Of a stretch of DNA of 64,000 bases, positions 18,766 to 50,237 are shown piece by piece. This DNA is from Trypanosoma brucei. Taxonomy: Eukaryota. Each line of letters starts with the position of its first letter. Positions within the stretch are counted from its first letter, which is position 1. The notes under the pieces are model-generated. The model made no database searches, had not been told where the DNA came from, and saw only the letters and a list, made by a program, of their open reading frames with translations. Location: the NCBI GenBank assembly GCA_000002445.1, contig CP000070.1, forward strand, positions 576,001 through 640,000, in the 5' to 3' direction. Made by a program: the position numbers and the translations under genes.

Positions 18766-20031
18766 CTATCTCTCCTCTGCAGGATCTCGCCCCATTTCCT
18801 GCAGCATACGCTGTAAAGGTGCCAACCACTTTTCATCCATATGACGGTGCAGTAGCATATCCTGCAGTTTGGGTGGATCACTTACAGGGTCGAATGTTGG
18901 CACGTTATCCCACTCCAATGGGCAGCACAACGAACCCGTAGCAGGGTGTACACAAAAGGGTAGCTTCAACAAGTGGTCACGGCGCGTACTCACGTGCTCA
19001 TCCAACCGGGGGTACATGAGTAGAATTTGGGCAGCAGCGATCACATTCGTCGCCGCGTCTCCAAGTGTCCGCAGAACATATGTCCAGTCGAGGATATTCC
19101 CCTCCTCAAATGGTACGTTCCGCAAAAAACGCTGTTCGACATCGCGGCGTGTGCCCATTTTTAGTGCCGAAACAATCGCCTTATAGACAATTCGAGCACC
19201 CTTCGGGTGAGTAACGCGGTTTGGATTTTCCGGAGTAGAGTTGAGAAACAGCGATGTGAAGGCTGGATCAAGTACTGTGGCCTGCACATGTTGGATGGTG
19301 GGATGAATAGGTTTGCCGTTTACAAAGTCTGCCACGACTGCATGCTGTGATGCTTTGGGCACAACAACGGTAAGGTAAGATACAAGAGCTGACCGCTCGT
19401 CATCGTGCATTTTGCACGCACGCTTATCACACACCCAAAGATGAATTCCACGGCGACCAGAGAACACAGGAAACAGATACCGGAACCCAAAATCATCCTC
19501 CAGCACCTTCCGCAACACAGCTGCGGCACACGACATCCACGTCCAGCACCACCGGCATATAGATTTTCCAGTACAACAAGAACGAGAATTGTCGTAGTCG
19601 CTCATATCGATATCAAACACGAGCTCACGCTCCACCGGAACAATTGTCCCCACTTTCTGCTTTTGGTTTGGACGAATGTTGTAGACGGCCCCGACGTCAA
19701 TTTTCTCCGGAAACGAACGGATGAGCTCACGACGAAGTTCCGTTACACTACTGTAACTCCTAAAGCGTGTGAAAATATCTCCCAGTAAAGTGAAACAGAA
19801 TTCGCGGCGCGCCAAATATCCATCTGCACTACTAGTACTTCCCCGGCCCCCTTCAGTAACATCCTCCCCCGTTGATGGCAACACCTTAGGATCGTTACCG
19901 TTTGCAACGCTACCTGGTGGGGAAGAGATGATCTTGTCCGCATGTTGAAGGTTATATGACAACCACTGCACCACAAGGTCTACGGGATATACGAATTCGT
20001 AGAATTCTCGTAGCGATGTTTCGTCTATCAT
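18766..20031 (-). CDS. PRI1: DNA primase small (catalytic) subunit
   Basis: Diagnostic eukaryotic/archaeal PriS motifs: RELVFDIDMSDYD...RSCCTGKSICRWCW (catalytic Asp triad + Zn knuckle) and FSGRRGIHLWVCD. ATG at 20031 (MIDETSLREFYEFVYPVDLV); the track start 20070 is TTG. Confidence 0.88.
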   Translation of the reverse strand: MIDETSLREFYEFVYPVDLVVQWLSYNLQHADKIISSPPGSVANGNDPKVLPSTGEDVTEGGRGSTSSADGYLARREFCFTLLGDIFTRFRSYSSVTELRRELIRSFPEKIDVGAVYNIRPNQKQKVGTIVPVERELVFDIDMSDYDNSRSCCTGKSICRWCWTWMSCAAAVLRKVLEDDFGFRYLFPVFSGRRGIHLWVCDKRACKMHDDERSALVSYLTVVVPKASQHAVVADFVNGKPIHPTIQHVQATVLDPAFTSLFLNSTPENPNRVTHPKGARIVYKAIVSALKMGTRRDVEQRFLRNVPFEEGNILDWTYVLRTLGDAATNVIAAAQILLMYPRLDEHVSTRRDHLLKLPFCVHPATGSLCCPLEWDNVPTFDPVSDPPKLQDMLLHRHMDEKWLAPLQRMLQEMGRDPAEER

Positions 20032-20568
20032 AGCAGAACTTAATATCTTCCCAATTAAGTCTTTAAACAAGCGAGGAGAACAGAAAAAATACCGGTGAGA
20101 AAAAAGGGGAAAGTGACTTTATTTTTTGTTTTTCACTCCAAAATCCGTGCGTCACCGACCTACAATGGAACGTTCCACGAGCAAAGAGGAAAGTACGGCT
20201 GACACAATTTTTTTAAAGGGTGCAAGCAAAAACAAGGCACCGTCCGAAACAGGAGGTAAGGGGAAAGTACCGCACCGCTACGAAGAAACACGTTAAATGG
20301 AAACTTCGTGAACACGCAAATAATAGCACAAGTGATTCGGATAAAGGTACATAGGAATACAGGTTATACATTCGGGTTGTGTGGTACGTAGGGAAACACA
20401 AAAAAAGATCTAAAAAGATAATGGGGATACTTGAGCATGCCAACACACCGCTCCCTCGTGCGCACCCCCCCCCTCCCTAATCCCGTTTTCTTTAGTCTTG
20501 TTCCACAGGGACACTTCATCCCCTCACCCCTTCGGTGGCGAACAAACGTTAGTGTGACACATCGCGTA

Positions 20569-22386
20569 TCACTTGACACGACTGCAACCCTCGTGTGATT
20601 TCTGCCGCATGTTGCTCGCATCATTCAGAACATCGTTTACCAATGTTTTACGATATTTGCTCCATTTCCGTTGTCTCTCGTAGTGGATCTCAATGTCTTC
20701 ACGGGATGGATATCCATTGGCAAACTCCTTCAACTGGGCATACTCACGCGCACCAAAGAGTTCCCTGCAACGATCGTAAGGTAACATGTAAAAAACACAT
20801 GGGCATCTTGTGTACACACTCGCCTGTCGCCCCATTGTAGGCTGTGGAAACATAGAAAATTTATTGGTTGGTTCTAAACCGAGGGCGAATGATGTAGGAT
20901 CTCCTTCGATCCCCCTTGGTGATGGTGATCCACTGGAAAGAGGTTGCAACACTTTCTGCAACGGCAACTCCCCATCTAAGGGTGCATAATCGGTCGGCGC
21001 ATCCTTTGCAGCAGCAAGTGTGTTTCGCCAGTAGGCCTCAGACCGGATTTTCTCTACGTCAGGTTTCCTATCAACCTCATGACTAAGTAACCCCAATTCC
21101 CCAAAGAATTCACCCTCGCGCAACGTGGCGACCTCCACAAATTTCATAGTCTGCGATGGCAAATTGTGTTGTTGGCCGCGTGGTACTGACGAGGGAAAGT
21201 GGCCAAACGATGTCACCGATTCATTGAGTTGGCGTGACTGCCTCGCTTTTGCACCAGTAGAGGGAAAACAGGTAACACTGCCCTCATGCACTCGTCTACC
21301 GTAGCGCGCGCGACCACGTGGTAGTGGTACATTACGAACAACTACGCATTGCCCCTCTTTTATAAAGTACATAGCATCCGATTCCATATCCTGCTCAACT
21401 ACCATTTGTCGCCAGGATACACGCAGCGGCACAAGTGCACGGGCACATCTTTCGTATTCTTGCGGTGTCCAGTGCGTTAAAACTTTCACACGAAGATGCT
21501 GCTGCAGAAAGGTGGTCTGTTCTTGCACCAGGCGCTTGTCCAGACGTTTGAGCACTCCGTCCATCACGTATTCCTTGTTCCTTGGGAAGCAAAGAAGTAC
21601 GCAATCTGAACATGTTTGGTAGTAGGCATCCTCCGGTAGAGCTGCTAGTGTCGTCGGAAGACCAAACATCTCGTACGGTTCGACAAGTGCATCCATTGGG
21701 CATTTAAACGGGAGGCGCAGTAAAACATTACCACGTAGTAAAACGTAAACGTACCTCGCCATATCATGCCTCGCGCTACTTTTCGAAGGAGAACAACTAC
21801 TGTCATCCCGTCCCTGCTCTGATGCTTCTTGCGCGCTAGTTACCTCCCTCTCTGCTTTTGGTGCCAAGTCCACATCAGAACTCCAGCCGGCGGTTGTGGC
21901 AGTGTCCTCATTTACCACCAACGAGTAGCGGTCAATGTAATCCATCGTTTCTACGTTTGCCTCGGTTTTCCGAGGTTGGTTCCCCGCAAGCACCACACCA
22001 TCACCCACGTGTGCTATTCGCATCGTTGAGGACATGGTCTCTAAGTCTCTTAACGAAAGATCCTTTAGTCTCGGAATCCGCCGCAGCATATTGACGGCAA
22101 GTTCTTTGCTAGAGTCTGTGCGGTACACAAAAGGATGCTCAAGACTGCGTTCCACAGCCATCCACAACTCACGTTCCTGACGCTCCTGTTGAGAAATGCG
22201 CTCCATCGTGTTGCATGCCTTGGGTTTGGCACGTCTTGCCCCCGCAGTCGCAACTCCTGGAATTAATGGAAATTGGGTTCCTTCTGCCGCCGCAAGCGCA
22301 CCATTGCATGCTCTTTTCTCCGCATTTTCCAATGCCTCATTCAATATACGCCTCTCGGCTGGTGTGAGCTGATTGACGATGCTCAT
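20569..22386 (-). CDS. cyclic-nucleotide-binding (CNB) domain-containing protein, no catalytic domain recognised
   Basis: 605 aa with an ATG start. CNB-fold signature: YFIKEGQCVVV ... (long insert) ... EGEFFGELGLLSHE ... TRCPCVFYMLPYDRCRELFG, matching the FGE[LI]AL(L) phosphate-binding cassette. No kinase, PDE or channel domain is evident. Confidence 0.6.
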   Translation of the reverse strand: MSIVNQLTPAERRILNEALENAEKRACNGALAAAEGTQFPLIPGVATAGARRAKPKACNTMERISQQERQERELWMAVERSLEHPFVYRTDSSKELAVNMLRRIPRLKDLSLRDLETMSSTMRIAHVGDGVVLAGNQPRKTEANVETMDYIDRYSLVVNEDTATTAGWSSDVDLAPKAEREVTSAQEASEQGRDDSSCSPSKSSARHDMARYVYVLLRGNVLLRLPFKCPMDALVEPYEMFGLPTTLAALPEDAYYQTCSDCVLLCFPRNKEYVMDGVLKRLDKRLVQEQTTFLQQHLRVKVLTHWTPQEYERCARALVPLRVSWRQMVVEQDMESDAMYFIKEGQCVVVRNVPLPRGRARYGRRVHEGSVTCFPSTGAKARQSRQLNESVTSFGHFPSSVPRGQQHNLPSQTMKFVEVATLREGEFFGELGLLSHEVDRKPDVEKIRSEAYWRNTLAAAKDAPTDYAPLDGELPLQKVLQPLSSGSPSPRGIEGDPTSFALGLEPTNKFSMFPQPTMGRQASVYTRCPCVFYMLPYDRCRELFGAREYAQLKEFANGYPSREDIEIHYERQRKWSKYRKTLVNDVLNDASNMRQKSHEGCSRVK

Positions 22387-23447: not shown

Positions 23448-26400
23448 TCAGCGGTTACGGATAACCCATCTCTCCAACACACAACCACACGTAAATGAAG
23501 CAACATCAACCCGCATATTCGGAGTACCACGACGTTTTTCTAAATCATTTACCGGACGGGAAACAAAACGCTTCAGCAACCGTTTGAACCGCCTATCCTC
23601 CTCCTGCAATAAAAGAATCCGCTCATCCTCCTCCACGTCCATAAGACTACAGGAAAAAGAACCAGAAGCGTCAACTCCTTCTCCTGCGCGTAAGCCGTCA
23701 TTTTGCAAAGAAGTTCCAGCACCATATGTATTGAAGGCACCAAGTGCAAGTCCCCTCCTGTCACTATCAAATCCAGAATATAGCACATCACCAGCTTTAT
23801 CACCGAAGGTAGATTCTGCAGTTTCACCAGCACTAAAAGGTCGCAACGAGTCAACTCCTTCTCCTGCGCGTAAGCCGTCATTTTGCAAAGAAGTTCCAGC
23901 ACCATATGTATTGAAGGCACCAAGTGCAAGTCCCCTCCTCTCACTATCAAATCCAGAATATGGCACATCACCAGCTTTATCACCGAAGGTAGATTCCGTA
24001 CTTTCACCAGCACTAAAAGTTATCAACGTTTCAGCAAAAAAATACAACCCTTTAGGGTCCTGTGTTTCAGTTGTGGTGGCATTATCCATAGATATCGCAA
24101 GCATGTCATCAGTGAATTGATCATGGAGATCAAATGCACAATCATCATATGCACACACAATATCTTTGCGGGAGGCGTCCTCTTCACCTTCAATAGCAGA
24201 AGCACATAATGCAAACCGCTCACGGCATTCATCACCTTGCAATCCTTCACGGTCCTGTGTTTCAGTTGTGGTGACATTATCCATAGATATTGCAAGCATG
24301 TCATCAGTAAATTGATCATGGAGATCAAATGCACAATCATCATATGCACACACAATATCTTTGCGGGAGGCGTCCTCTTCACCTTCAATAGCAGAAGCAC
24401 ATAATGCAAACCGCTCACGGCATTCATCACCTTGCAATCCTTCACGGTCCTGTGTTTCAGTTGTGGTGACATTATCCATAGATATCGCAAGCATGTCATC
24501 AGTGAATTGATCATGGAGATCAAATGCACAATCATCATATGCACAGACAATATCTTTGCGGGAGGCGTCCTCTTCACCTTCAATAGCAGAAGCACATAAT
24601 GCAAACCGCTCACGGCATTCATCACCTTGCAATCCTTCACGGTCCTGTGTTTCAGTTGCGGTGACATTATCCATAGATATTGCAAGCATGTCATCAGTGA
24701 ATTGATCATGGAGATCAAATGCACAATCATCATATGCACACACAATATCTTTGCGGGAGGCGTCCTCTTCACCTTCAATAGCAGAAGCACATAATGCAAA
24801 CCGCTCACGGCATTCATCACCTTGCAATCCTTCACGGTCCTGTGTTTCAGTCGTGGTGACATTATCCATAGATATTGCAAGCATGTCATCAGTGAATTGA
24901 TCATGGAGATCAAATGCACAATCATCATATGCACACACAATATCTTTGCGGGAGGCGTCCTCTTCACCTTCAATAGCAGAAGCACATAATGCAAACCGCT
25001 CACGGCATTCATCACCTTGCAATCCTTCACGGTCCTGTGTTTCAGTTGTGGTGGCATTATCCATAGATATTGCAAGCATGTCATCAGTGAATTGATCATG
25101 GAGATCAAATGCACAATCAACTTTTGTAGATGTACTGCGTATACGTGTTTCGTTGGATTTGTTATTTGTTTCCGCTGAGTTATTTTTTGTGCTGTTTTCA
25201 TTGTCTTTATCCGATATGCCTTGATGATTGTTTTCTTTGATTTCGTGTGAATATTCGTCTTTTTTTTTCTCTTCTATTTTTTTTTGTATTTTTTCTTTAT
25301 TTGCATCTTCGTAAATTTCTTCTTTTTGTGTTTTATTTGTGTTTCGTAGTATGTTGAACATGGCGTTTACCTCGTTTTCCATTATCTTATCCCTCTCGTG
25401 CTCCTCCCTGCATATTATTCTTTGCTTGTAGTTTTTCCTTTGTTCATGTGTGTTTATGATCCCCTCTCGTTCTGTTGTCTTTATTTTTTCTGGCTCTTCA
25501 TCGTCTGCCTTTATGTGTCGTTTAGTTGGTGATTGCGTTGAAGCCATGTCCTGTGTTTCGTTGAGCGTCGTTGGTGTGGAGTGTGACACTTTGTCGTTTT
25601 TCCATAAAATATTTATGAGTTCGTATATTTCTTGATCCATCGCCTCATCCAAGTCGGAGTCCCAAGAGTTCCATAGAAGGAGACTCTCATTGGTGTTAGA
25701 TTTTCTAACTGGATATTTTTCAGTTGGATGTCCTTTCTCATCTATTTCCTCTTTCTTTATTCGTGCAGCGTTTAACATTTTTAGTGCCAATCTCATCCTT
25801 GTTTGTAATTTATGGATTGCAATGGCGTGTTCAAGATACATTCGTTGACGTTGTGCTGACTCTTGTATACGCAGCTTTTCAGTTTGTAGCGGATACGCGT
25901 AACTAATCCATTCACCTGGGTTTATTTCCACCGCTGGTTCCTCCTCGTCGCTACACTCGCCGCCATCAACCTTCCTCGTGAGGTTGCGCCTATCGACGCT
26001 TTCCTTGCTAACTATCAAGTTGCGTCTCTCCTCCTCCTTCTCGATTACAGCATGTACATTTTGTAGTGCTAACCACATCTTTTCTTCTGCATCTAACCGC
26101 TGCTGATAAGCTTTAACCTGAAGCACTCTATGTGTCATCATTTTTTGAATTAGAGCGGAATACGCTTCCATTTCTTCTATGTGGAGTTCATGCCGTGCAA
26201 TGTCCTCATCGTGCTGAACCCTCCAACATGGGGGGTCAGTTGATACTTCACGCCGGCTCCTCTCTACACTACCCTTCAGGTCATCTGTGACGATGTGAGC
26301 AATTATATCAGCAGCCGGAGAAAGCGCAGGACTCTTAGAATGGCCTCGCCCCCTGGGCACAGACACTGTGTCGCCGCTGAACAGAATAGAACCGAAGCGA

Positions 26401-26747
26401 CCGATAGAGGTTGTTGCACTCATTGGGTGAGCACGTGCTGCTTTGAACCCCTGTCCAACCTGCCCACCATAAGAACGATGGAAGGCGGAGTTAAGCCTAA
26501 TGGGAGAAGGAGGGTTCTTTTCATAATACCGCGATGCAGACCGCGTGTCAACATCTTCCCACATCCCCACAGTACTGGTGCGAGAGACGCGATCTTGTGG
26601 AGCGGAAGGGGGTGGGGATGACGTGAAGCTGGCTACGGTTTTGCTCTCCAAACTATCCCTTCTAGTCGCCGCACGCTTGAGGAGCCCTGCAGCCCGCGCT
26701 AAACCTCCACGGCGTCTCGATGGCGCATCCGTATTTCGCGATCTCAT
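23448..26747 (-). CDS. large repeat-containing protein (N-terminal coiled-coil region; 5.5 x 65-aa acidic Cys-containing repeats; 2 x 60-aa Gly/Ser-rich repeats)
   Basis: 3.3-kb ORF. ATG at 26747 (track start 26765 is TTG). Internal 195-nt and 180-nt tandem repeats are in frame. Artefactual ORFs are open in the other frames and strand across the array because the period is a multiple of 3. Confidence 0.7.
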   Translation of the reverse strand: MRSRNTDAPSRRRGGLARAAGLLKRAATRRDSLESKTVASFTSSPPPSAPQDRVSRTSTVGMWEDVDTRSASRYYEKNPPSPIRLNSAFHRSYGGQVGQGFKAARAHPMSATTSIGRFGSILFSGDTVSVPRGRGHSKSPALSPAADIIAHIVTDDLKGSVERSRREVSTDPPCWRVQHDEDIARHELHIEEMEAYSALIQKMMTHRVLQVKAYQQRLDAEEKMWLALQNVHAVIEKEEERRNLIVSKESVDRRNLTRKVDGGECSDEEEPAVEINPGEWISYAYPLQTEKLRIQESAQRQRMYLEHAIAIHKLQTRMRLALKMLNAARIKKEEIDEKGHPTEKYPVRKSNTNESLLLWNSWDSDLDEAMDQEIYELINILWKNDKVSHSTPTTLNETQDMASTQSPTKRHIKADDEEPEKIKTTEREGIINTHEQRKNYKQRIICREEHERDKIMENEVNAMFNILRNTNKTQKEEIYEDANKEKIQKKIEEKKKDEYSHEIKENNHQGISDKDNENSTKNNSAETNNKSNETRIRSTSTKVDCAFDLHDQFTDDMLAISMDNATTTETQDREGLQGDECRERFALCASAIEGEEDASRKDIVCAYDDCAFDLHDQFTDDMLAISMDNVTTTETQDREGLQGDECRERFALCASAIEGEEDASRKDIVCAYDDCAFDLHDQFTDDMLAISMDNVTATETQDREGLQGDECRERFALCASAIEGEEDASRKDIVCAYDDCAFDLHDQFTDDMLAISMDNVTTTETQDREGLQGDECRERFALCASAIEGEEDASRKDIVCAYDDCAFDLHDQFTDDMLAISMDNVTTTETQDREGLQGDECRERFALCASAIEGEEDASRKDIVCAYDDCAFDLHDQFTDDMLAISMDNATTTETQDPKGLYFFAETLITFSAGESTESTFGDKAGDVPYSGFDSERRGLALGAFNTYGAGTSLQNDGLRAGEGVDSLRPFSAGETAESTFGDKAGDVLYSGFDSDRRGLALGAFNTYGAGTSLQNDGLRAGEGVDASGSFSCSLMDVEEDERILLLQEEDRRFKRLLKRFVSRPVNDLEKRRGTPNMRVDVASFTCGCVLERWVIRNR
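23668..24030 (-). repeat. tandem repeat, period 180 bp, 2 copies (coding: FSAGE(S/T)(T/A)ESTFGDKAGDV(P/L)YSGFDS(E/D)RRGLALGAFNTYGAGTSLQNDGLRAGEGVD...)
   Basis: tcaactccttctcctgcgcgtaagccgtcattttgcaaagaagttccagcacc at 23671 and 23851. Near-identical over ~180 bp. Confidence 0.9.
24055..25129 (-). repeat. tandem repeat array, period 195 bp, ~5.5 copies, >97% identical (coding: DDCAFDLHDQFTDDMLAISMDNVTTTETQDREGLQGDECRERFALCASAIEGEEDASRKDIVCAY)
   Basis: The repeat anchor tcctgtgtttcag recurs at 24058, 24253, 24448, 24643, 24838 and 25033. Copies differ by only a few SNPs (gtggtggc/gtggtgac, atatcgc/atattgc, cacacaat/cagacaat). Confidence 0.95.
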
Positions 26748-28088
26748 CAGAAGATGCGCTGGCAACTAACGAAATGCGGTAGTTGTGGAAACACACCCAC
26801 GTACTTGGTAACCGTGATAGGCGTTCAGTCTTGTGCAGATGAGTGACTAATATATATATATTAGACAGGAAACTTGAAGGTAGATGTGCTCCTGGCACCT
26901 TCACACTGAGGGCAACTCAAATGACTAAATTCTTCTTTGTCACCGCTGCTGCTTCCTGTGAATACCTGGTGTCTTAAGGCAACCAGCGTTGCACGTAAGT
27001 GAAACTTCTTCCAATTGCTTTCCGTGTCTCTTTACAGCGATATTGCGTCGCTCGTTATAATACCTAAAGTCACCTCTGCACCACGGAATAACACTCACCA
27101 ACGCATAAGACGTTGATAAGGGAGGGGGAAAGCCTGGCACTTGTCGCACTTTCACGCCGCAGCGTATTGACCTGTGTCCGCAACAGGTGGGTTCGGCTCC
27201 TATTAAGCGCTCAAAGAAGAACTTCCAGGTAAACGAACGCGTCTACAAAAGTGCGCACGAAGACGGTGATACTGTCACGAAAAAAACAGAAAGAGAGAAG
27301 ATTCACACCTCCACTCCACCAAAAATGAGTGGAGAATTCAAACTCCCTTTTACTTAATGCCCTTTTGGTGTGTTTTATACCACCACAGAAGCAGCACCAG
27401 TCACAGGTTCGTGCGAATTTGCCCGGCCCCAACTGCCTTCCGTCGTGCACACACTACCAGGGGGTTAGACAAACTCCGTCAACCTAAAAACAAAAACAAA
27501 ACAAGTGCCAATAAATGTGTATATATGTATAACTAATAACACAATCACACTTAACCTCCCCCTCCCTGGCTATCGGCCAAATTTTCTTATTTCTCTTTTT
27601 TCTTACCTACCTGGAATGTGGGTTAAGAGTTTTTATTACAAAATATTCTTTCTTTTATTTATCCCTGTTTGTTGTCAGGTTTTTAATCCGCTGTACCCCG
27701 TTATCAGCCCACCTGTCGTCCTTTCCTAAATCCCTTTCCTCACTTAATTCAGAGAAACAGCTGCACGGAAAGTGCTTTGAATAAAATGATCCAGTAAATA
27801 CGTCCCACCAATAAGCCTTTGTTGAGATACAGCACCTAATGTACATTTAAAAAAAAACAGAAAAGAAAGGCGAGGAAAAAAGAAAACGAACATCCAAACC
27901 AAATTCAATATCAACAAGCAGACATAACACGGAATAAGATGTCAAAACAGCAGGGACTCCCCCCCTCATACCAACCAAAAAAAATGGAGTGCTTTCACAA
28001 GCAATAAAAAAAAAGAAAGAAAGAACATAACTAAACTTAGTGTTCTTGATCGAAGGGAAGGCAACACAATACCACAAAATGATGCATC

Positions 28089-37866: not shown

Positions 37867-40722
37867 TTACTTTATAAGCTGCCGAAGAATAAGCGAAACC
37901 TTGCTCGATTTTTTGATGCTATCCATCGCCTGCAACCTGATCGACTTCGTCGCATTATGTAGATCGATACCATTCACTCCATCCACCTGCCATGAAATCT
38001 GTCCGGCATCATCTGGAACCAATGTTTTCATAAACGGATGAGTCTTTAGTGCCGCTGAGACAGGAGGAAGACGAGTCAACACAAGCTTATCTCCTCCATG
38101 TGTCATGCTGATATCCCAGGACGTTTTTAGGTCAGGGCGGCGCAACTCCATGTTCATACCGTCGAAGTGATCGAGGGTAACAGCGTTCTCAAACGTCAGT
38201 GGAGGAGCTTCCTTCAGTTCAGCCATGACCTCAGGAGTCATGGCGACACTGCCCTTTGGGGCCACTGCTATGCGCACCGCAGCTGCATCACCACCGCCGG
38301 GAGAGGTTGACGAAGAAGATTCTTTTTTGCTTTCGCTCTTCCTGGATACTACCACAGCCGCATCGGAGCGCGGTTTTACGTCTACAAGTGGCTTGTCTAC
38401 CACACCTTGAGCCTCCGCTGCCTCCTTCAACGATGTACCAGCACCACTGTCTGCTTTCTTTCCACCTTCGGGAGTCTCCTCTTTAGCCTCTCCATCCTTA
38501 GATTCACTATCCTTCGCCTTATTGCTTTTCCTCCCCCTTGTACGTTTCTCCTCGCCCTCTTCCTTGTCTTTTCCCTTCTTTGTCTTTCCACCCTTTTTCT
38601 CCTTTCCACTCTTCTTCGCAGCCTTTGACAGTTTCTTTCCCGCTTTCTTCCGGGCATCCTCCTTGTCCTTCTTCTTCTTTTCAGAGGCCTTTTTCTCAGC
38701 TTTCCTTTTCTTGGTTGCCTCACCCTTTTCCTCACCTTCCGTTGTCCCAACCTTTTTGGTCTCCTTCGTCGCTACCGTCGAGGATCTCACCTCCCCCGAA
38801 GTTTCTGCGGTTCTGTCATCGGTTTCTGATGAATGGAGCGTCTTCCGGCGGCGGCCCCGCTTTTTGGGTTCCGTTTTCTCGCTACCTTCATGTTGTGTCT
38901 CCTCATCTCCCTGCTCCCGTGTTCCCTGTCCTTCTGGCAGCGGCCTATCCGAGTCGGTACCATGCCGGTGTTGTGAATCCAGGTTTCCAGCATTCTTGAT
39001 TTCGTCATCCGCAGCCGAACGCATAACGTTGCTCTTTGACCCCCCTCTCTCTGCGAGTTCAGCACCCTCCAACTTCTCGATTTCCATGGCCTTCGGTTGC
39101 CGCCGTGAGTTCCCCACCCCCACCGCAACTGATCCGTCCTTGGAATCAGAATTTACAGTGGCAACGGTTTGCAATCTCAAAATAAGGAAAAGGGAGCTGC
39201 GCATAACGTCATCAAGGAAAGAATTGTTTTTCGGCTCGCATCCATTGACTTGGGCAACGTGCAGATTACCGAGGTGGGTGTTAATGAACTCACTCGCCGC
39301 ATTTGAAAGCGAAATATTCGGGGAAACACTATCTAGTATCAACTGGTTTTCACCATTCGCAACCAATTTGAGCTTCCAATCTACGGAAACAGATGGCCGC
39401 TTTAGAATAAGGCACGCTTCCTGCCCAGAAGCACCTTCCCCCCCTTGCGGTATAATGTTAAACGAAACCTCCTGAGGATCATGCATGCCCGAAACACCTG
39501 CAACAAGCAACGAGACTTTTGTTACCTTACTCTTTAGTATGTTTTGTAACTTCTCCAGACGCGACACTCGGACTTCCTCACTTACATCACCATCGGCCTC
39601 TTGTTCCCCAGGTTCACGAATAGTTACCCCATTTATATTATAAATCGGTAATCCACCCTCGCTTAGTTGGAGGGCATGGAAGAGTTCACCACCGGTTGAT
39701 GTGGCAGTCCGCAGTGTATTTTCCACTCCAATCAGTTTGCTCGCCATATTGATCAATAAACCCCATTTAAACGACGAGGCAGACCGCTCAATTGTGATCT
39801 TTCCGGAAGAGGGGTCGTAGTAAGTTACAGTAACAGGAGGATCGCTTATATCTTGCGGGGGGAATGGAAGGGAAGGCGTGATACGGGTGGTTTCCAGGTT
39901 CAGTCGATCCGGTTGTACCATCAACATCCATCCCAAAAGACTGTAGAATGACTGGACCACCAAATTCGCCGTAGTCCCATCCGCCGCAGCAGTTTCACGA
40001 GGTATCGAGTTGCTGCCGTTAGAGGTCAACGGTGCACTTATGGAATCGAATGCTGTTACCAGCGCAGCACGGAACTGAAGAAAGTCCTGTGTGTTCTTTT
40101 TGGTAGCCGCAAGAGCCTGAAGTTCCACATCTGTCCGTCGGGAATTCGCTGGTGAGGCTTCTTCTGCAGCGAGGCGCGCCTCCAGCCGCTGGCACACGAC
40201 TCCATAGTTATCCCGCACCACACCTGTGCAGAGTACAGCGGTAAGTGAAACCACAGCCTTAGCACATGCACTCCGTTCGGCAAAAATCTTTTCTAGACGT
40301 GGCATAAACACCTCAGCTTCTTCATCCGAGCCACAAGGTACGAGTACCTCGCCGTCGCTTCCGACCGCACAGGAAGCGAAGGCGAGCATAACGCTCTTTT
40401 GCACCAGATAGAGGGCTTCTTTCGGAGTTAACCTCGAGTCAAACTCCAGTATTCGGCGGAGCTCACGAAGCACCACACCTTGTACGCGCGACACCTCGGA
40501 GCGAAAAACTCGGTCGTGCTCAGGGTTAATCACCACTTGTTTCAGTGTTTTGTCATATTTCATAAATGGTGTCAATAGACGGGTTTTTAGACCAACAATG
40601 GAATTAACAAATGAAACATCCGGTGATGTAGCATCGGATGTCTGAGAGCCAGAGTGGTCAGCCTTCCTTGAAGCAGCGGATTCCTTCCGATCCTGCTTAG
40701 CGCCGCCACGAGGCCGATACAT
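37867..40722 (-). CDS. hypothetical protein (~950 aa) with ~150-aa extremely Lys/Glu-rich low-complexity tract (nuclear/nucleolar-type)
   Basis: ATG at 40722 (track start 40797 is GTG). Structured N-terminal 600 aa. Then the KKRGRRRK...KKRKAEKKASEKKKKDKEDARKKAGKKLSKAAKKSGKEKKGGKTKKGKDKEEGEEKRTRGRKSNKAKD tract. A C-terminal ~180-aa domain follows. Confidence 0.65.
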   Translation of the reverse strand: MYRPRGGAKQDRKESAASRKADHSGSQTSDATSPDVSFVNSIVGLKTRLLTPFMKYDKTLKQVVINPEHDRVFRSEVSRVQGVVLRELRRILEFDSRLTPKEALYLVQKSVMLAFASCAVGSDGEVLVPCGSDEEAEVFMPRLEKIFAERSACAKAVVSLTAVLCTGVVRDNYGVVCQRLEARLAAEEASPANSRRTDVELQALAATKKNTQDFLQFRAALVTAFDSISAPLTSNGSNSIPRETAAADGTTANLVVQSFYSLLGWMLMVQPDRLNLETTRITPSLPFPPQDISDPPVTVTYYDPSSGKITIERSASSFKWGLLINMASKLIGVENTLRTATSTGGELFHALQLSEGGLPIYNINGVTIREPGEQEADGDVSEEVRVSRLEKLQNILKSKVTKVSLLVAGVSGMHDPQEVSFNIIPQGGEGASGQEACLILKRPSVSVDWKLKLVANGENQLILDSVSPNISLSNAASEFINTHLGNLHVAQVNGCEPKNNSFLDDVMRSSLFLILRLQTVATVNSDSKDGSVAVGVGNSRRQPKAMEIEKLEGAELAERGGSKSNVMRSAADDEIKNAGNLDSQHRHGTDSDRPLPEGQGTREQGDEETQHEGSEKTEPKKRGRRRKTLHSSETDDRTAETSGEVRSSTVATKETKKVGTTEGEEKGEATKKRKAEKKASEKKKKDKEDARKKAGKKLSKAAKKSGKEKKGGKTKKGKDKEEGEEKRTRGRKSNKAKDSESKDGEAKEETPEGGKKADSGAGTSLKEAAEAQGVVDKPLVDVKPRSDAAVVVSRKSESKKESSSSTSPGGGDAAAVRIAVAPKGSVAMTPEVMAELKEAPPLTFENAVTLDHFDGMNMELRRPDLKTSWDISMTHGGDKLVLTRLPPVSAALKTHPFMKTLVPDDAGQISWQVDGVNGIDLHNATKSIRLQAMDSIKKSSKVSLILRQLIK

Positions 40723-41416
40723 TTTGTCGCTAGGGTAAAGGGAAAGATCAGAGTATGAAGTGCGCTGTCCGCAATTCTTCGCTCTCACCTCACTCACTCT
40801 TTGCCCAACACAATCCGCAGAAAAAGAATAAAAGGCTAAACTGATGGTGCTCTACGCAGACACTGGTAGATGAAGGGCCCTAGGTTATACCGTATTCAAA
40901 GATAAAACGACGCGCCGCGCAATAAACATAAACGTTCACCAAGATTTTTAAAAAAAAGGAGAATGAAACAAAAAAGAGCTATCTATCTACCAAGTATTCG
41001 AAGAGATCAAAAGCAGTGACAGTTCACGCGCTTCACTTGCAACACCAACCCCTGAAAGGGATGGCTAGGAGATTAATGCCTTCCGTTCCTTAAAAGAAAG
41101 AAGTTATAATGATAAATTATTAATAGAACTAACGCAGAACACGCATCGGATTCAATCACCATAAAGTGCTCCCAATACTAAAACTTTCACACACACACAC
41201 ACCTCCCTCCCTTGTGGCTTCCTAATGATGCGACTCGTCCGTAACTTCCTGAAGGAAGAGTGAAAAAAATTCAGAGTATGCGATCGTGCCAGAAGAGGGG
41301 TGCCATACTACACACACACACTCCCTCACCTCACCGTTGCTACAATCGCGTGTGCATGATACTTCCTTTTTCCCGTTGCATTTCAGTCGTCCAACCCCCT
41401 CCTGCGAAAACTTCAA

Positions 41417-45732: not shown

Positions 45733-47679
45733 TATACTTTTAATGCTCTTCCCTTGTTTATATTTATATTTTACTGCCCGTAACAAATGACTTCCTTTGC
45801 TTTCCTTCGTGATAATGTCTTTTTTTTTTTCGTTGTTTATTTTTGTTTGTTTTGAGATGAAATTGCAGTAGCAACAGGAGAAATAAGGGGGAAAGTATCT
45901 TTTTTTTTTCAAATTGAAGAACTACTTAGAAAAAAGACATCAAATAAATTGCAATACAACGCACATACGTATCATCCCCCTTTTTCCACACGTACAAACA
46001 AACCTTTTTCATCGCAGCCTTTTTGTGTGAGCAATAGTGGGGAAACCTATATATATATATATATTTCCATCCTCTCTCTCTCTCTCTTCCTCTCTTCTTT
46101 TTTTTTAAAAAAAAAAGAAAATTCTGGATATTTTCTTCCTTGCTTTTCTGTTTTTTCTTGTTTACCAGCTACTCTGTCCAGTTTGTTTCGCCTCGCCTCT
46201 TTACTCTCACTTTTTGTCTTCGCCCTTTTTTTTTTTCATCACCATATGATAATCAGCACGTGAAGAAAAAAGGAAACCATACGGTAAAATAACATTTTCA
46301 CTGATCCTCAGCGAAAATAAAGTTGGTAAACATTACGGTGAGGGACGGGGAACAAATAAAAATAAAAACAAAACAAAAGCAACAAGAACAAGAACAGGAA
46401 CAGGAGTTAAAAAAAAAAAATACCTGAAAGAGTAATATGAAATATTTTACAGGCAAAAATGGCGGAAAAGGAAAAAACAAACAAACAAATCAGACCGACT
46501 AATACGCATCATATAGCGTTTTAGGACCGCAAAATTCATTTTTTTTTTTAATTGCTCAGTAATACCGGTGAGTCGAGGAGGGGTAAAACTTCACACGTGT
46601 ACTTTCCTTCCTTTAATCTCGCCATCATTTTGTATTCCTAAAATATTTCCTGTTCGGTACATATCTTTCATCTTTTTTTTTTCTTTTGCCGACATTAACT
46701 CCCCACCCCCTGCACACAAACACACAAACAAGAAGGGGGAAAAAAAAAAACACGCAATGCAACACGCGCTCATTTTCTCAAGGACATGGACATCACATGT
46801 CGCGTATAGTAGCAACAAAAAATTAAATGAACAACAACAACAACAAGAAAAAAAAAAGAAGATGAAGGGTAAAAGAAGCAACATGGGAAATTTATAATAC
46901 AAACAACCATTTTCTCAATTCATATTCATAAACGTAAGGCACGATATAAACATTAGAAGGAGTTGAATTCCACTCCGTAATGTTAATAATATAATTACAA
47001 TCATATGCACTCCTCATTTCCCTCTTCCCATTCCTAAATAATAAAAGTAAAACCCCCTTTTTAAAAAAAAAAAATCAGAAGAAAAAAAAAAGATGAAAAC
47101 TAAAAACTAAAAAACTGAAAACTGAAAAATTAAAAGAAAAAACAACAAAGGTAGATGTAACATCATTGAGTATATATCACGCTAAACACCTCTTACTTCA
47201 TTCTCTTTCCCATCAAAGCAACACCTCCAGCAGCATTTAAGGGATAAAAATAAACAAGAAACCGCCAATTAATAATTAAAAACAAAAAAAACTGTTTACT
47301 ATAGCAGGAAACAAAAAGAAAGACAATCAAGGAAAATATTCGAAATCAGAAGCAACAGCAATTGGGAAGGATAAAACAAACAATCAAAAGAGGACCGAAC
47401 GGAAGGGGGTAAATAAAAACAAAAAAAAAACTAAAAGAGAAAAAAAAATTTTAATTTAAAAAAAAAGGGAAAGACGCAACTTCTCATATATAATGCGAGG
47501 AATGGACGCCATTCACCATTTTCATCTTCTTAACATTTTCCCTCTTCAAAACTGTCTCTCCCTCCCTCCCGTTGAATTCCTTTACTTATTTTTTAAAAAT
47601 TATTTTAGCTCTTTTCCTCTTTCGGTATTTCTCCCCCCCCCCTTTGCATTCATTTGTACGTATATGTTGGTGATATTTG

Positions 47680-47683
<4 letters not shown>

Positions 47684-47710
<27 letters not shown>
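47684..47710. repeat. (TA)13 microsatellite
   Basis: Direct read of the sequence. Lies within the 4.5-kb coding desert. Confidence 0.95.
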
Positions 47711-47715
<5 letters not shown>

Positions 47716-49098
47716 TTTCATATTATATATCTTATTAACAATATAAAAGTAACAAACCATAATCAATATTATTATTATTATTATTATCGGAGTGTGACGC
47801 TGCATCTCCTCCCTCCCCCTAACAAAGCTATAAAAATAAAAAAAAGCATGCAATTTCGCATTCCTCGTTTCTGCAGTCAACTCATCAAAAGACAAAGACA
47901 AAAAAAAAAAAAAGAGAGACGAATCATAACGACACGATGAAATGAAGAAAAGAGGAAAAAAAAATAACATTATAATACACAATCATAACATTTCCTTTTT
48001 TTCCCCCTTCACTTCTTATATATATATATATATATTATTTAGATATTTATATTTTAATATTTTTATATGTGTGTTTATATTTATGTATATTTTTCTTTCT
48101 CTATTGCAATAACATCAAAAACAACATAACCTTGTCCGTGAAATAAAAATAAAACAAAACATTTAACTACTGTACAAAAATCTTTTTTTTGCATAATGGA
48201 TACTAAATTTACATATTTTACATACAACTTTTGTGACATTAACATACAAACACATGACACTCATGACACATATACAACGATTAATAAACATATGACGGGA
48301 ATGCGGATAGGTTTTTTTTTCTTTTTTATTTAATTTCTTAAATTATTTTTTTATTTATTAAATAGGCACAAAAAGGGGGAGGGGAAAAAAAAAATAACAA
48401 CAACATCAACATCAACATCAACCGAAAACCAGAAAACACAATTGCTTTTTTTTTTAAAAAAGTCGAATGAAAAACCAAAGGCGAAACCACCGGCAGACAT
48501 GTATACATGTGTAAAAACACACGAACACAAATTAATCACACGAAAAAAAAAAGAAACAAAAGGGGGTTGAGGGAATAACAATTAATTTTTAAAAAAGAAA
48601 AAAAAGATGACGGTAGTAGTGATAAATAAATTTAAATGATGATTTGTGTTCGCCTTAACACCATTAATATAAATATATAAATATATATTTTTTCTTTTGC
48701 TTTATGAACTTTTTGTTAGTTTCTTCTTTTTTTTTTCTCCCCCCCCCCTTTAATTTAATGGAAAAGGGATGGCGGTAGCGGCAACTGCACAGTGGTAGTG
48801 ATGGTATTCTTTTTTTTTTTAATTATTTATTATTTTTTTTCGTTTGGTTTTGTTTTGCTGAAAGTGGTTTTGACAAGAGATTACTGAAATCAAACACAAA
48901 CACACGAACATATAAAAAAAAGGAAAAAAGGGGGAAAAACATGAGGAGCGTTCAAAAGGTATAAAACAACAACAACAACGACATAATCATCAATCTAACA
49001 AGGTGAAAAGGTGAAAAAGTAAAAAATAACAACAGTAAAAAAAACACATATTTATATATATATATTTTTTGGAACATGTAAATATGTTGGTAAAGTAA

Positions 49099-49124
49099 AT
49101 ATATATATATATATATATATATAT
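49099..49124. repeat. (TA)13 microsatellite
   Basis: Direct read. Lies within the coding desert. Confidence 0.95.
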
Positions 49125-50090
49125 TGCGGAAGAAAGGAAGTAAAAGTAAAAAGGAGGGAGCTCCAACTGGGCGAGGAAAGGTGATAACAAATCAAAAAAA
49201 AAAAGTAAAAGTAAAAAAACACTCCTCTCTCCAAATACAAAAAAAAAGATGTACAACGAGAGACATAAAGTAAAAAAAAAAAGATGAAAAGGAACATTAT
49301 TTCAATGTTAATTACACTCATTGGATTCCTCGCCCTCAATATAAAATCCCTTTACTCCCCTCGTTTTCTTTTTCTTTTTGCTTTTTACACTTTTTGTTTC
49401 TTCCATTACGATGCAGTCGAGTGACTCGCGCACTCGCCCACGCATGCATGCACGTAAACATAAATATATAAGTACATATATGTATATAAATATATACATA
49501 TATACACGCAAAAATACAAATGCGTAAATATGTGTGACGTTATACTCAACGTGAAGGTGAAACACAAAAAATTAAAAAAGAAAAAAAACGAAAATCTGCT
49601 CAAGCCTTTTTTTTTCCCCCTCCTTCCAAACGAAGTCCTTTGCACCCCCAACAATAACAACAATAAGAAAAAAAAAAGAAACGGAAGGGGCTGCCACATA
49701 TATCTTCTCTTGCTTTGCACCCATAAGTACATACGCACATAAACTTAGCAGAAATGAATCGCCGTGCTGAAGAGAAATGTCTCTCGTTTACGTAACAAAA
49801 ATAGAAGAAAAAAAAGAAGGAATCTGCAAAACTATCACACGCCATTGCGCTAAGAGTTAAAACGACCAAAAGAAACGAAACACTTTTTATGGACGCAACA
49901 CCCTCAACACGCTAAAAAAACTGACATATGTACGACCATCTCATTGTGTTAATTACTCACTTTTGTGTCTTATTTTCCCCTTTTCTTTCATCCTCCCAAG
50001 AATATTCTTCACAGCCATTATTATTTCTATTAATATTATTATTACCATTTCCTCTTTCAGTCCTCACAGAAGCATAAACACACATAAACA

Positions 50091-50114
50091 TATATATATA
50101 TATATATATATATA
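50091..50114. repeat. (TA)12 microsatellite ~125 nt 3' of GSK3-like stop
   Basis: Direct read. Confidence 0.95.
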
Positions 50115-50237
50115 GGGGAACAAACACAGCATGTGCACATTACCCACCCCATTCCATCCCCACACCAAAACGCAAACATGCCACAAAAAGGGAAAATAAA
50201 ACAAAAAAAACAAAAAAAAACAAATCCGCCCAGCAGA

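What the first reader, a model, noticed from the sequence alone, without database searches (positions are those of the whole stretch)
20569..22386. Orphan cyclic-nucleotide-binding-domain protein with a long insertion in the CNB fold
The ORF has the CNB phosphate-binding cassette (EGEFFGELGLLSHE) and flanking beta-roll elements (YFIKEGQCVVV ... TRCPCVFYMLPYDRCRELFG). About 120 aa are inserted between them. I recognise no kinase, channel, PDE or GEF domain. Trypanosome PKA is not activated by cAMP, and the genuine downstream cAMP effectors are still poorly defined. A stand-alone CNB protein is therefore a plausible effector or response-pathway component.
Basis: partly seen in the sequence, partly recalled or inferred. 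Interest (0 to 1): 0.55.

Follow-up and report, generated by a model that had tools for sequence, protein, structure and literature searches.

The report
Known trypanosome cAMP-binding protein CARP11

Summary
The 605-aa ORF at window 20569..22386 (minus strand) is real. It is 100% identical to T. brucei TREU927 XP_845855.1. The published cloning primers for CARP11 (Tb927.7.2320) match its first and last 18 nt exactly.

CARP11 was described in 2023 (PMC10354285):
- It came from an RNAi screen, and knockdown gave 1.69-fold resistance to a phosphodiesterase (PDE) inhibitor.
- It has one cyclic-nucleotide-binding (CNB) domain, split by two insertions.
- R520 was overlaid on the cAMP-contacting Arg of PKA.
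- Recombinant protein was captured on cAMP-agarose, with a competition EC50 of about 300 nM.

My own tests agree:
- Pfam cNMP_binding scores above threshold, and 48 bits once the inserts are excised.
- A profile of the domain hits PKA RIα at E = 8e-16.
- E430 and R520 are invariant in 22 homologues.

The insertion is two blocks, aa 359-414 and aa 438-518. The second splits the phosphate-binding cassette (PBC).

One small addition: residues about 85-292 form a second CNB-fold domain with a degenerate PBC and its own disordered insert. The whole protein therefore aligns to tandem CNB-A/B modules of PKA-R and PKG. The paper reports a single domain.

Verdict: already known, low interest.

The parts
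20569..22386 (-). Complete CARP11 (Tb927.7.2320) coding sequence, 605 codons plus stop
   Evidence: ORF. 100% identity to XP_845855.1/AAZ12296.1. Published primers ATGAGCATCGTCAATCAG and TCACTTGACACGACTGCA match at 22369-22386 and 20569-20586.
22135..22386 (-). N-terminal region, aa 1-84: two long helices (aa 9-34 and 60-81) joined by a disordered linker
   Evidence: AF2 model secondary structure and pLDDT. No Pfam family.
21511..22134 (-). N-terminal degenerate CNB-fold domain, aa about 85-292, including its own variable insert
   Evidence: Weak Pfam cNMP_binding stretch at aa 208-270, 15.4 bits, below the cutoff. A profile of this region hits 16 CNB proteins among 17 PDB matches; best E = 6.7e-4; TgPKA-R 5j3u E = 0.006 over the whole domain. 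pLDDT 83-97 with a beta-roll, short helix and long C-helix topology. Foldseek: when only this half was confident, the top 50 hits were all CNB domains.
21757..21972 (-). Variable disordered insert in the N-terminal domain, aa 139-210
   Evidence: pLDDT below 50 at aa 141-207. Majority-residue frequency 0.27 and length 53-72 aa among Trypanosoma, 37-179 aa in the wider set.
21625..21666 (-). PBC-like stretch of the N-terminal domain, FGLPTTLAALPEDA (aa 241-254). The Glu position is Leu243 and the Arg position is Glu252.
   Evidence: Sequence. None of 22 homologues has Glu or Arg at these positions, while P251 is invariant. Helix 244-249 in the model.
21313..21510 (-). C-terminal CNB domain, segment 1 (aa 293-358): N-terminal helices and first beta strands, including YFIKEGQCVVV
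   Evidence: Pfam. Same boundaries as published. pLDDT 84-96.
21145..21312 (-). Insert 1 of the C-terminal CNB domain, aa 359-414: variable and disordered
   Evidence: pLDDT below 50 at aa 361-408. Majority-residue frequency 0.34; length 53-64 aa in Trypanosoma and 6-129 aa in the wider set.
21076..21144 (-). C-terminal CNB domain, segment 2 (aa 415-437): beta strand plus the first half of the PBC (EGEFFGELGLLSHE). E430 is at 21097-21099.
   Evidence: Most conserved block, 0.89. G425, G429 and E430 are invariant in 22 homologues. In HMMER alignments the FGE motif aligns to the FGE of PKA RIα.
20977..21075 (-). Insert 2a, aa 438-470: a conserved, fixed-length, mostly helical element embedded in the PBC (VDxKPDVxxIWSxxYWxxTLxxA)
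   Evidence: Majority-residue frequency 0.70 and fixed length of 33 aa in Trypanosoma. D439 invariant and L457 nearly invariant in 22 homologues. Helices 444-448 and 450-462 in the model, pLDDT 55-75.
20833..20976 (-). Insert 2b/c, aa 471-518: a variable disordered loop ending in the conserved FP motif (aa 513-514)
   Evidence: pLDDT below 50 at aa 469-510. Conservation 0.33 and variable length. F513 and P514 invariant in Trypanosoma.
20752..20832 (-). C-terminal CNB domain, segment 3 (aa 519-545): PBC Arg (R520, 20827-20829), RQASVYT, the last beta strands and the start of the C-helix
   Evidence: R520 and A522 invariant in 22 homologues. Aligned to the PRAAT of PKA RIα. The publication overlays R520 on RIα R211.
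20572..20751 (-). Conserved C-terminal helical tail, aa 546-605 (EYAQLKEFAxGYPSxEDIExxYERQRKW...)
   Evidence: Conservation 0.76. G558, Y559, P560 and W575 invariant in 22 homologues. Helices 546-556 and 562-599. No Pfam family.

Best explanation
The ORF is T. brucei CARP11 (cAMP Response Protein 11, Tb927.7.2320). It is a non-enzymatic cAMP receptor.

Shown:
- It has one canonical CNB domain (aa 293-545) that keeps the ribose-contacting Glu (E430) and the phosphate-contacting Arg (R520).
- That domain is interrupted by two insertions, and the second lies inside the phosphate-binding cassette.
- According to PMC10354285, the recombinant protein binds immobilised cAMP and is competed off by free cAMP (EC50 about 300 nM). 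Knockdown makes bloodstream trypanosomes 1.69-fold less sensitive to a PDE inhibitor that raises cAMP.

Shown here in addition:
- The N-terminal half (aa about 85-292) is a second CNB-fold domain lacking both ligand-contact residues. The protein therefore has a PKA-R-like tandem CNB layout.

Inferred:
- cAMP binds only the C-terminal domain.
- As in PKA-R and Epac, PBC closure moves the hinge and C-terminal helices, here the conserved tail aa 546-599 and the conserved helix embedded in the PBC, aa 438-470.
- This movement changes binding to a partner protein, probably in the flagellar axoneme, where the paper places most CARPs on TrypTag data. In this way the lethal cAMP signal would be transmitted.

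The confidence figure is a blend: the identity with CARP11 is essentially certain, while the output mechanism is inference.
For: Identity:
- 100% match to XP_845855.1/AAZ12296.1.
- CARP11 primers match the ORF termini exactly, one site each, with 0 expected by chance.
- Same length, 605 aa, in Table 1 of the paper.

CNB domain:
- Pfam cNMP_binding at 42.8 bits, and 48.1 bits over model positions 7-86 of 89 after excising the inserts.
- Profile against PDB: 126 sequences below E = 0.01; PKA RIα at E = 8e-16.
- AF2 model pTM 0.58 with pLDDT above 80 in the cores.
- E430 and R520 invariant in 22 homologues.

Tandem layout:
- Foldseek top hits are two-domain PKA-R and PKG modules of about 260 aa, aligned over about 475 query columns. 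That equals two domains plus the three inserts.
- The N-domain profile hits CNB proteins, and the N-domain alone gives CNB hits.

Function, from PMC10354285:
- cAMP-agarose capture and competition, with EC50 309 and 276 nM.
- RNAi resistance factor 1.69, P < 0.0001.
- Axonemal or flagellar localisation of the CARPs.
Against: - The RNAi effect is small: 1.69-fold against 1.18-fold in the parental control. CARP11 was the least-represented hit in the screen, at 0.046% of reads.
- Binding was shown with tagged protein in E. coli lysate, not with purified protein or a PBC mutant.
- No partner, output or structural change has been demonstrated.
- In my model the PBC residues 431-444 have pLDDT below 50. 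I could not access the coordinates, so the Glu/Arg geometry was not verified independently.
- The N-terminal CNB assignment is only marginal by sequence: 15.4 bits in Pfam, below the cutoff, and hhalign N against C gives E = 0.15. It rests mainly on a predicted structure.
Confidence: 0.77

Rival explanations
1. CARP11 is a passive cAMP buffer or sink, or a scaffold that shapes flagellar cAMP microdomains. It would not be a signal-transmitting effector.
For: The protein has no catalytic or recognised output domain. The knockdown phenotype is weak. The affinity of about 300 nM lies in the range the authors relate to microdomain concentrations.
Against: Removing a buffer should raise free cAMP and increase sensitivity to PDE inhibition. 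Knockdown gives resistance instead. The strongly conserved non-CNB elements (tail aa 546-590 at 0.76; insert 2a at 0.70) suggest a conserved interaction surface, which is not needed for buffering.
Confidence: 0.12
2. The physiological ligand is not cAMP but another nucleotide or nucleoside. The precedent is trypanosome PKA-R, whose CNB pockets bind purine nucleosides.
For: The kinetoplastid PKA regulatory subunit has been repurposed in this way (PMC6440977, listed). An 81-aa insertion sits inside the PBC. The base-binding region was not analysed here.
Against: CARP11 keeps the canonical FGE...R-x-A PBC, with Glu and Arg invariant across 22 homologues. The authors report that the CARP11 PBC matches the PKA consensus very well. 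Free cAMP competes at about 300 nM. The gene was selected in a screen based on elevated cAMP.
Confidence: 0.06
3. CARP11 is a divergent PKA/PKG-type regulatory subunit that inhibits a kinase catalytic subunit until cAMP binds.
For: The tandem CNB layout and the best structural matches are to PKA-R and PKG regulatory modules; TgPKA-R 5j3u is top at E = 8e-14. The paper reports the same top hit.
Confidence: 0.05

Closest known systems
T. brucei CARP11, Tb927.7.2320 (Bachmaier, Gould et al. 2023, PMC10354285)
   Same: It is the same gene. The protein is 100% identical, has the same length, and the published primers match the ORF ends. The published CNBD segments 293-358, 415-437 and 519-545 coincide with what I find.
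   Different: The gene itself is no different. My analysis adds an N-terminal degenerate CNB-fold domain, where the paper reports a single CNBD. It also shows that the first 33 aa of the PBC-embedded insert are as conserved as the domain core.
T. brucei CARP1, Tb927.11.16210
   Same: CARP1 is a kinetoplastid protein with several CNB domains and no catalytic domain. It came from the same RNAi screen and binds cAMP-agarose. It also mixes one canonical PBC with degenerate ones.
   Different: It is a different gene of 705 aa with three CNB domains, the canonical one first. Its affinity is about 10-fold higher (about 30 nM), and it was by far the strongest hit in the screen. CARP11 has the canonical domain last and carries long insertions.
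PKA regulatory subunit / PKG tandem CNB-A/CNB-B module (e.g. PDB 5j3u, 1rgs, 4z07)
   Different: CARP11 has no docking/dimerisation domain and no conserved inhibitor site. Its first CNB is degenerate. It carries three insertions of 56-81 aa, one inside the PBC. No kinase partner is known.
Epac (Rap GEF 3/4) regulatory region
   Same: In both, a CNB domain is used as a cAMP switch acting through hinge and lid helices. The authors say the affinity is of the same order as Epac's. The Epac regulatory domain is among the fold hits.
   Different: CARP11 has no DEP, REM or RasGEF domains.

Membership tests
CARP11 / Tb927.7.2320 | Sequence identity with the published gene | tested here: met
   100% identity over 605 aa to XP_845855.1. 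Both published cloning primers match the ORF termini exactly. The length of 605 aa agrees with Table 1.
Cyclic nucleotide-binding domain (Pfam PF00027) | Profile match above the curated threshold | tested here: met
   42.8 bits against a cutoff of 27.5. 48.1 bits over model positions 7-86 of 89 with the inserts excised. Profile against PDB: E = 8e-16 to PKA RIα.
Cyclic nucleotide-binding domain (Pfam PF00027) | Eight-stranded beta-roll with a PBC helix and flanking helices | tested here: met
Cyclic nucleotide-binding domain (Pfam PF00027) | PBC with Gly-Glu (ribose 2'-OH contact) and Arg (phosphate contact) | tested here: met
   F428-G429-E430 and R520-Q-A522 are present. G429, E430, R520 and A522 are invariant in 22 homologues. 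The spacing is canonical once aa 438-518 are removed. The overlay of R520 on RIα R211 is reported in PMC10354285.
Cyclic nucleotide-binding domain (Pfam PF00027) | Actual binding of cAMP | not testable with these tools
   Reported experimentally: capture on 2-AHA- and 8-AHA-cAMP agarose, with competition EC50 of 309 and 276 nM (PMC10354285).
N-terminal domain (aa 85-292) as a functional CNB domain | CNB fold together with the ligand-contacting Glu and Arg | tested here: not met
   The fold is supported. The Glu position is Leu243 and the Arg position is Glu252, and no homologue of 22 has Glu or Arg there. Pfam scores only 15.4 bits, below the cutoff. It is a CNB-fold domain but probably not a nucleotide binder.
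PKA regulatory subunit | N-terminal dimerisation/docking domain and a conserved inhibitor (pseudo)substrate site upstream of CNB-A | tested here: not met
   No RIIa or other family in Pfam at E <= 10. ARRAKP at aa 50-55 is not conserved among orthologues. Full-length phmmer against PDB gives no hits.
Epac | RasGEF catalytic domain following the CNB domain | tested here: not met
   Only cNMP_binding is found in Pfam.

The most novel reading that the evidence does not exclude
CARP11 would not be a single-CNB protein as published. It would be a tandem-CNB switch whose first domain is an ancient pseudo-CNB with no Glu or Arg in any homologue. Its cAMP-binding PBC would carry a conserved 33-aa helical element (aa 438-470) inserted exactly between the PBC helix and the phosphate-binding Arg. 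On this reading the embedded helix and the conserved C-terminal tail are the output surface, so cAMP occupancy is read out directly through an element built into the binding cassette. That coupling geometry is not described for PKA-R, Epac or CNG channels.
Probability: 0.45. Interest if true: 0.35.

Novelty: already known. Interest (0 to 1): 0.12.

Why it matters
Trypanosome PKA does not respond to cAMP, so real cAMP receptors in these parasites are of interest for signalling biology and for the PDE-inhibitor drug programme. This particular receptor has already been identified, named and shown to bind cAMP (PMC10354285), so the finding adds no new gene or function. What remains is modest. The tandem layout, with a pseudo-CNB followed by a canonical CNB, and the conserved helix inside the PBC give concrete targets for the still-unknown output mechanism of CARP11. 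These targets are aa 85-292, aa 438-470 and aa 546-599.

Tried and rejected
- Full-length phmmer against PDB sequences gave no hits. The inserts break up the signal, and profiles of the excised domains were needed.
- Megablast against the phage collection gave no match, as expected for a eukaryotic gene. It was uninformative.
- The first AF2 run, with 12 Trypanosoma sequences only, modelled the C-terminal CNB poorly (mean pLDDT 44.5). It was useful only for the N-terminal domain. Adding 11 distant homologues fixed this.
- hhalign of the N-domain profile against the C-domain profile was not significant (E = 0.15). An internal duplication is therefore not demonstrated by sequence.
- I tried to name the organisms carrying the distant 590-846-aa homologues. 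A word-indexed search with P0025 returned only unnamed Logan assemblies. Only Angomonas deanei is named.
- Jäger et al. 2014 on T. cruzi CNB proteins (PMC8486353) is not held in the library. I could not check whether the T. cruzi orthologue was studied there.
- Model coordinates are not exposed to the scripting tool, so I could not measure the E430/R520 geometry.
- PKA-R and Epac membership were considered and rejected (see the membership tests).

Full report
**1. Observation**

The window carries a 605-codon ATG-initiated ORF on the minus strand at 20569..22386. All three quoted motifs are there:
- YFIKEGQCVVV at aa 340-350
- EGEFFGELGLLSHE at aa 424-437
- TRCPCVFYMLPYDRCRELFG at aa 526-545

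Pfam reports one family only, cNMP_binding (PF00027). It scores 42.8 bits against a gathering score of 27.5, split into three stretches. No kinase, channel, PDE or GEF family appears even at E <= 10.

**2. Identity**

The protein is 100% identical to T. brucei TREU927 XP_845855.1/AAZ12296.1 and to a T. equiperdum protein annotated 'cyclic nucleotide-binding domain containing protein'.

A full-text search led to Bachmaier, Gould et al. 2023 (PMC10354285). That paper names Tb927.7.2320, 605 aa, as CARP11. Its expression primers contain ATGAGCATCGTCAATCAG and TCACTTGACACGACTGCA. Each occurs exactly once in the window, at 22369-22386 (minus strand) and 20569-20586 (plus strand), which are the first and last 18 nt of the ORF. 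The finding is therefore CARP11.

**3. What is already published** (PMC10354285)

- Targeted RNAi gave a resistance factor of 1.69 (P < 0.0001), against 1.18 in the parental control.
- A single CNBD 'with insertions' was mapped to aa 293-358, 415-437 and 519-545.
- The PBC matches the PKA consensus, and R520 overlays RIα R211 and CRP R82 in an AlphaFold model.
- His6-SUMO-CARP11 from E. coli lysate was captured on 2-AHA- and 8-AHA-cAMP agarose and competed off by cAMP, with EC50 of 309 and 276 nM.
- The authors place most CARPs at the flagellar axoneme on TrypTag data.
- A 2025 T. cruzi paper cites CARP11 only as one of two CNB-containing CARPs. No further functional study turned up.

**4. Independent verification**

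- Excising aa 359-414 and 438-518 raises the Pfam score to 48.1 bits, with near full-length model coverage (positions 7-86 of 89).
- A profile of the excised domain from 11 Trypanosoma orthologues hits 126 PDB sequences below E = 0.01. All those shown are CNB proteins, with PKA RIα at E = 8e-16. The FGE and R-x-A motifs align to those of RIα.
- An exhaustive HMMER search found 51 cluster representatives. They include 23-27%-identical proteins of 455-838 aa with the same layout.
- One of these is from Angomonas deanei.
- Another, from an unnamed organism, sits upstream of a DNA-primase small-subunit gene exactly as in the window, so it is a syntenic orthologue.
- With these sequences added, AlphaFold2 gives pTM 0.58 and pLDDT above 80 in both domain cores. 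It is disordered at aa 141-207, 361-408 and 469-510.
- G425, G429, E430, R520 and A522 are invariant across 22 homologues.
- One caveat: the model's PBC residues 431-444 have low confidence, and I could not access the coordinates. The 3-D Glu/Arg geometry therefore rests on the published overlay.

**5. Corrections and additions**

(a) The 'about 120 aa insertion' is two insertions. Insert 1 (aa 359-414) lies between the early strands and the strand preceding the PBC. It is variable in sequence and length: 53-64 aa in Trypanosoma and 6-129 aa more widely. Insert 2 (aa 438-518) lies inside the PBC, between the PBC helix and the phosphate-binding Arg.

(b) Insert 2 is not uniform. Its first 33 residues (aa 438-470) have a fixed length in Trypanosoma and are as conserved as the fold core (0.70 against 0.78-0.89). 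They are predicted helical. The rest is a variable loop.

(c) The C-terminal tail (aa 546-590) is strongly conserved, with G558, Y559, P560 and W575 invariant.

(d) The N-terminal half contains a second CNB-fold domain (aa about 85-292) that the paper does not mention. The paper says 'a single' CNBD, and the words tandem, degenerate and pseudo do not occur in it. The evidence is:
- A sub-threshold Pfam stretch at aa 208-270 (15.4 bits).
- A profile of the region finds CNB proteins for 16 of its 17 PDB matches, including the whole CNB-A of TgPKA-R.
- It is confidently modelled (pLDDT 83-97) with a beta-roll, a short helix at 244-249 and a long C-helix.
- When only this half was confident, all 50 top Foldseek hits were CNB domains.
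- With the better model, the top hits are two-domain PKA-R and PKG modules of about 260 residues aligned over about 475 query columns, which equals two domains plus three inserts.

The PBC-like stretch of this domain, FGLPTTLAALPEDA, has Leu in place of the Glu and Glu in place of the Arg. No homologue restores either residue. It is very probably a non-binding pseudo-CNB.

Sequence evidence for this domain is marginal: hhalign N against C gives E = 0.15. The claim rests mainly on predicted structure.

**6. Mechanism**

Shown or published:
- cAMP binding at sub-micromolar affinity.
- A contribution to cAMP toxicity.

Inferred:
- cAMP binds the C-terminal PBC (E430, R520).
- PBC closure repositions the hinge and C-terminal helices and the PBC-embedded helix.
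- This alters the interaction with an unidentified, probably axonemal, partner.

Rivals considered:
- A passive buffer does not fit, because knockdown gives resistance rather than hypersensitivity.
- A non-cAMP ligand is unlikely given the canonical invariant PBC and cAMP competition.
- A kinase regulatory subunit does not fit, because there is no docking domain and no conserved inhibitor site.

**7. Comparison and novelty**

The gene is CARP11 and is already known.
- It works like the regulatory modules of PKA-R or Epac, but it is a member of neither family (see the membership tests).
- Its nearest functional analogue is CARP1.
- The pseudo-CNB domain and the conserved PBC-embedded helix are minor refinements that might guide mutagenesis.

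**8. Verdict**

Interest is low (0.12).

Noticed in passing
window 23448..26765 (-), repeats at 24045..25119 and 23670..24019: The upstream neighbour is a 1105-aa ORF. It holds 5.5 near-perfect (98%) tandem copies of a 195-nt (65-aa) unit and 1.9 copies of a 180-nt unit. It also matches DUF1663 at aa 186-409.
   Followed up: partly
window ~45913..50237: A stretch of about 4.3 kb has no ORF of 200 aa or more and 30-32% GC, against about 47% elsewhere. It is full of poly(A)/poly(T), (TA)n and other low-complexity runs. It is an unusually long AT-rich intergenic or UTR region inside the transcription unit.
   Followed up: partly
whole window: 24 of the 26 ORFs of 200 aa or more lie on the minus strand. 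The two plus-strand ORFs each overlap a longer minus-strand ORF. Cumulative GC skew falls monotonically. This is what one unidirectional polycistronic transcription unit of a trypanosomatid chromosome looks like.
   Followed up: no
window 18766..20070 (-); loci L001 3865-5148 and L002 3321-4604: The downstream neighbour is the DNA primase small subunit (PF01896, E = 6e-39). The gene order CARP11-like, then DNA_primase_S, then a protein of about 1289 aa is kept on contigs of an unnamed organism carrying an 820-aa, 26%-identical homologue. Orthologues therefore exist well outside the named Trypanosoma species.
   Followed up: partly
PMC10354285, abstract versus section 3.3: The paper's abstract calls CARP11 'unique to Trypanosoma', while its text reports orthologues in Angomonas deanei and Bodo saltans. 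My search also finds the A. deanei protein (P0028) and about 40 more distant representatives.
   Followed up: partly
window 37867..40797 (-): A 976-aa ORF consists of four recently defined domains of unknown function: DUF7760, DUF7761, DUF7762 and DUF7759 (E down to 3e-109).
   Followed up: no
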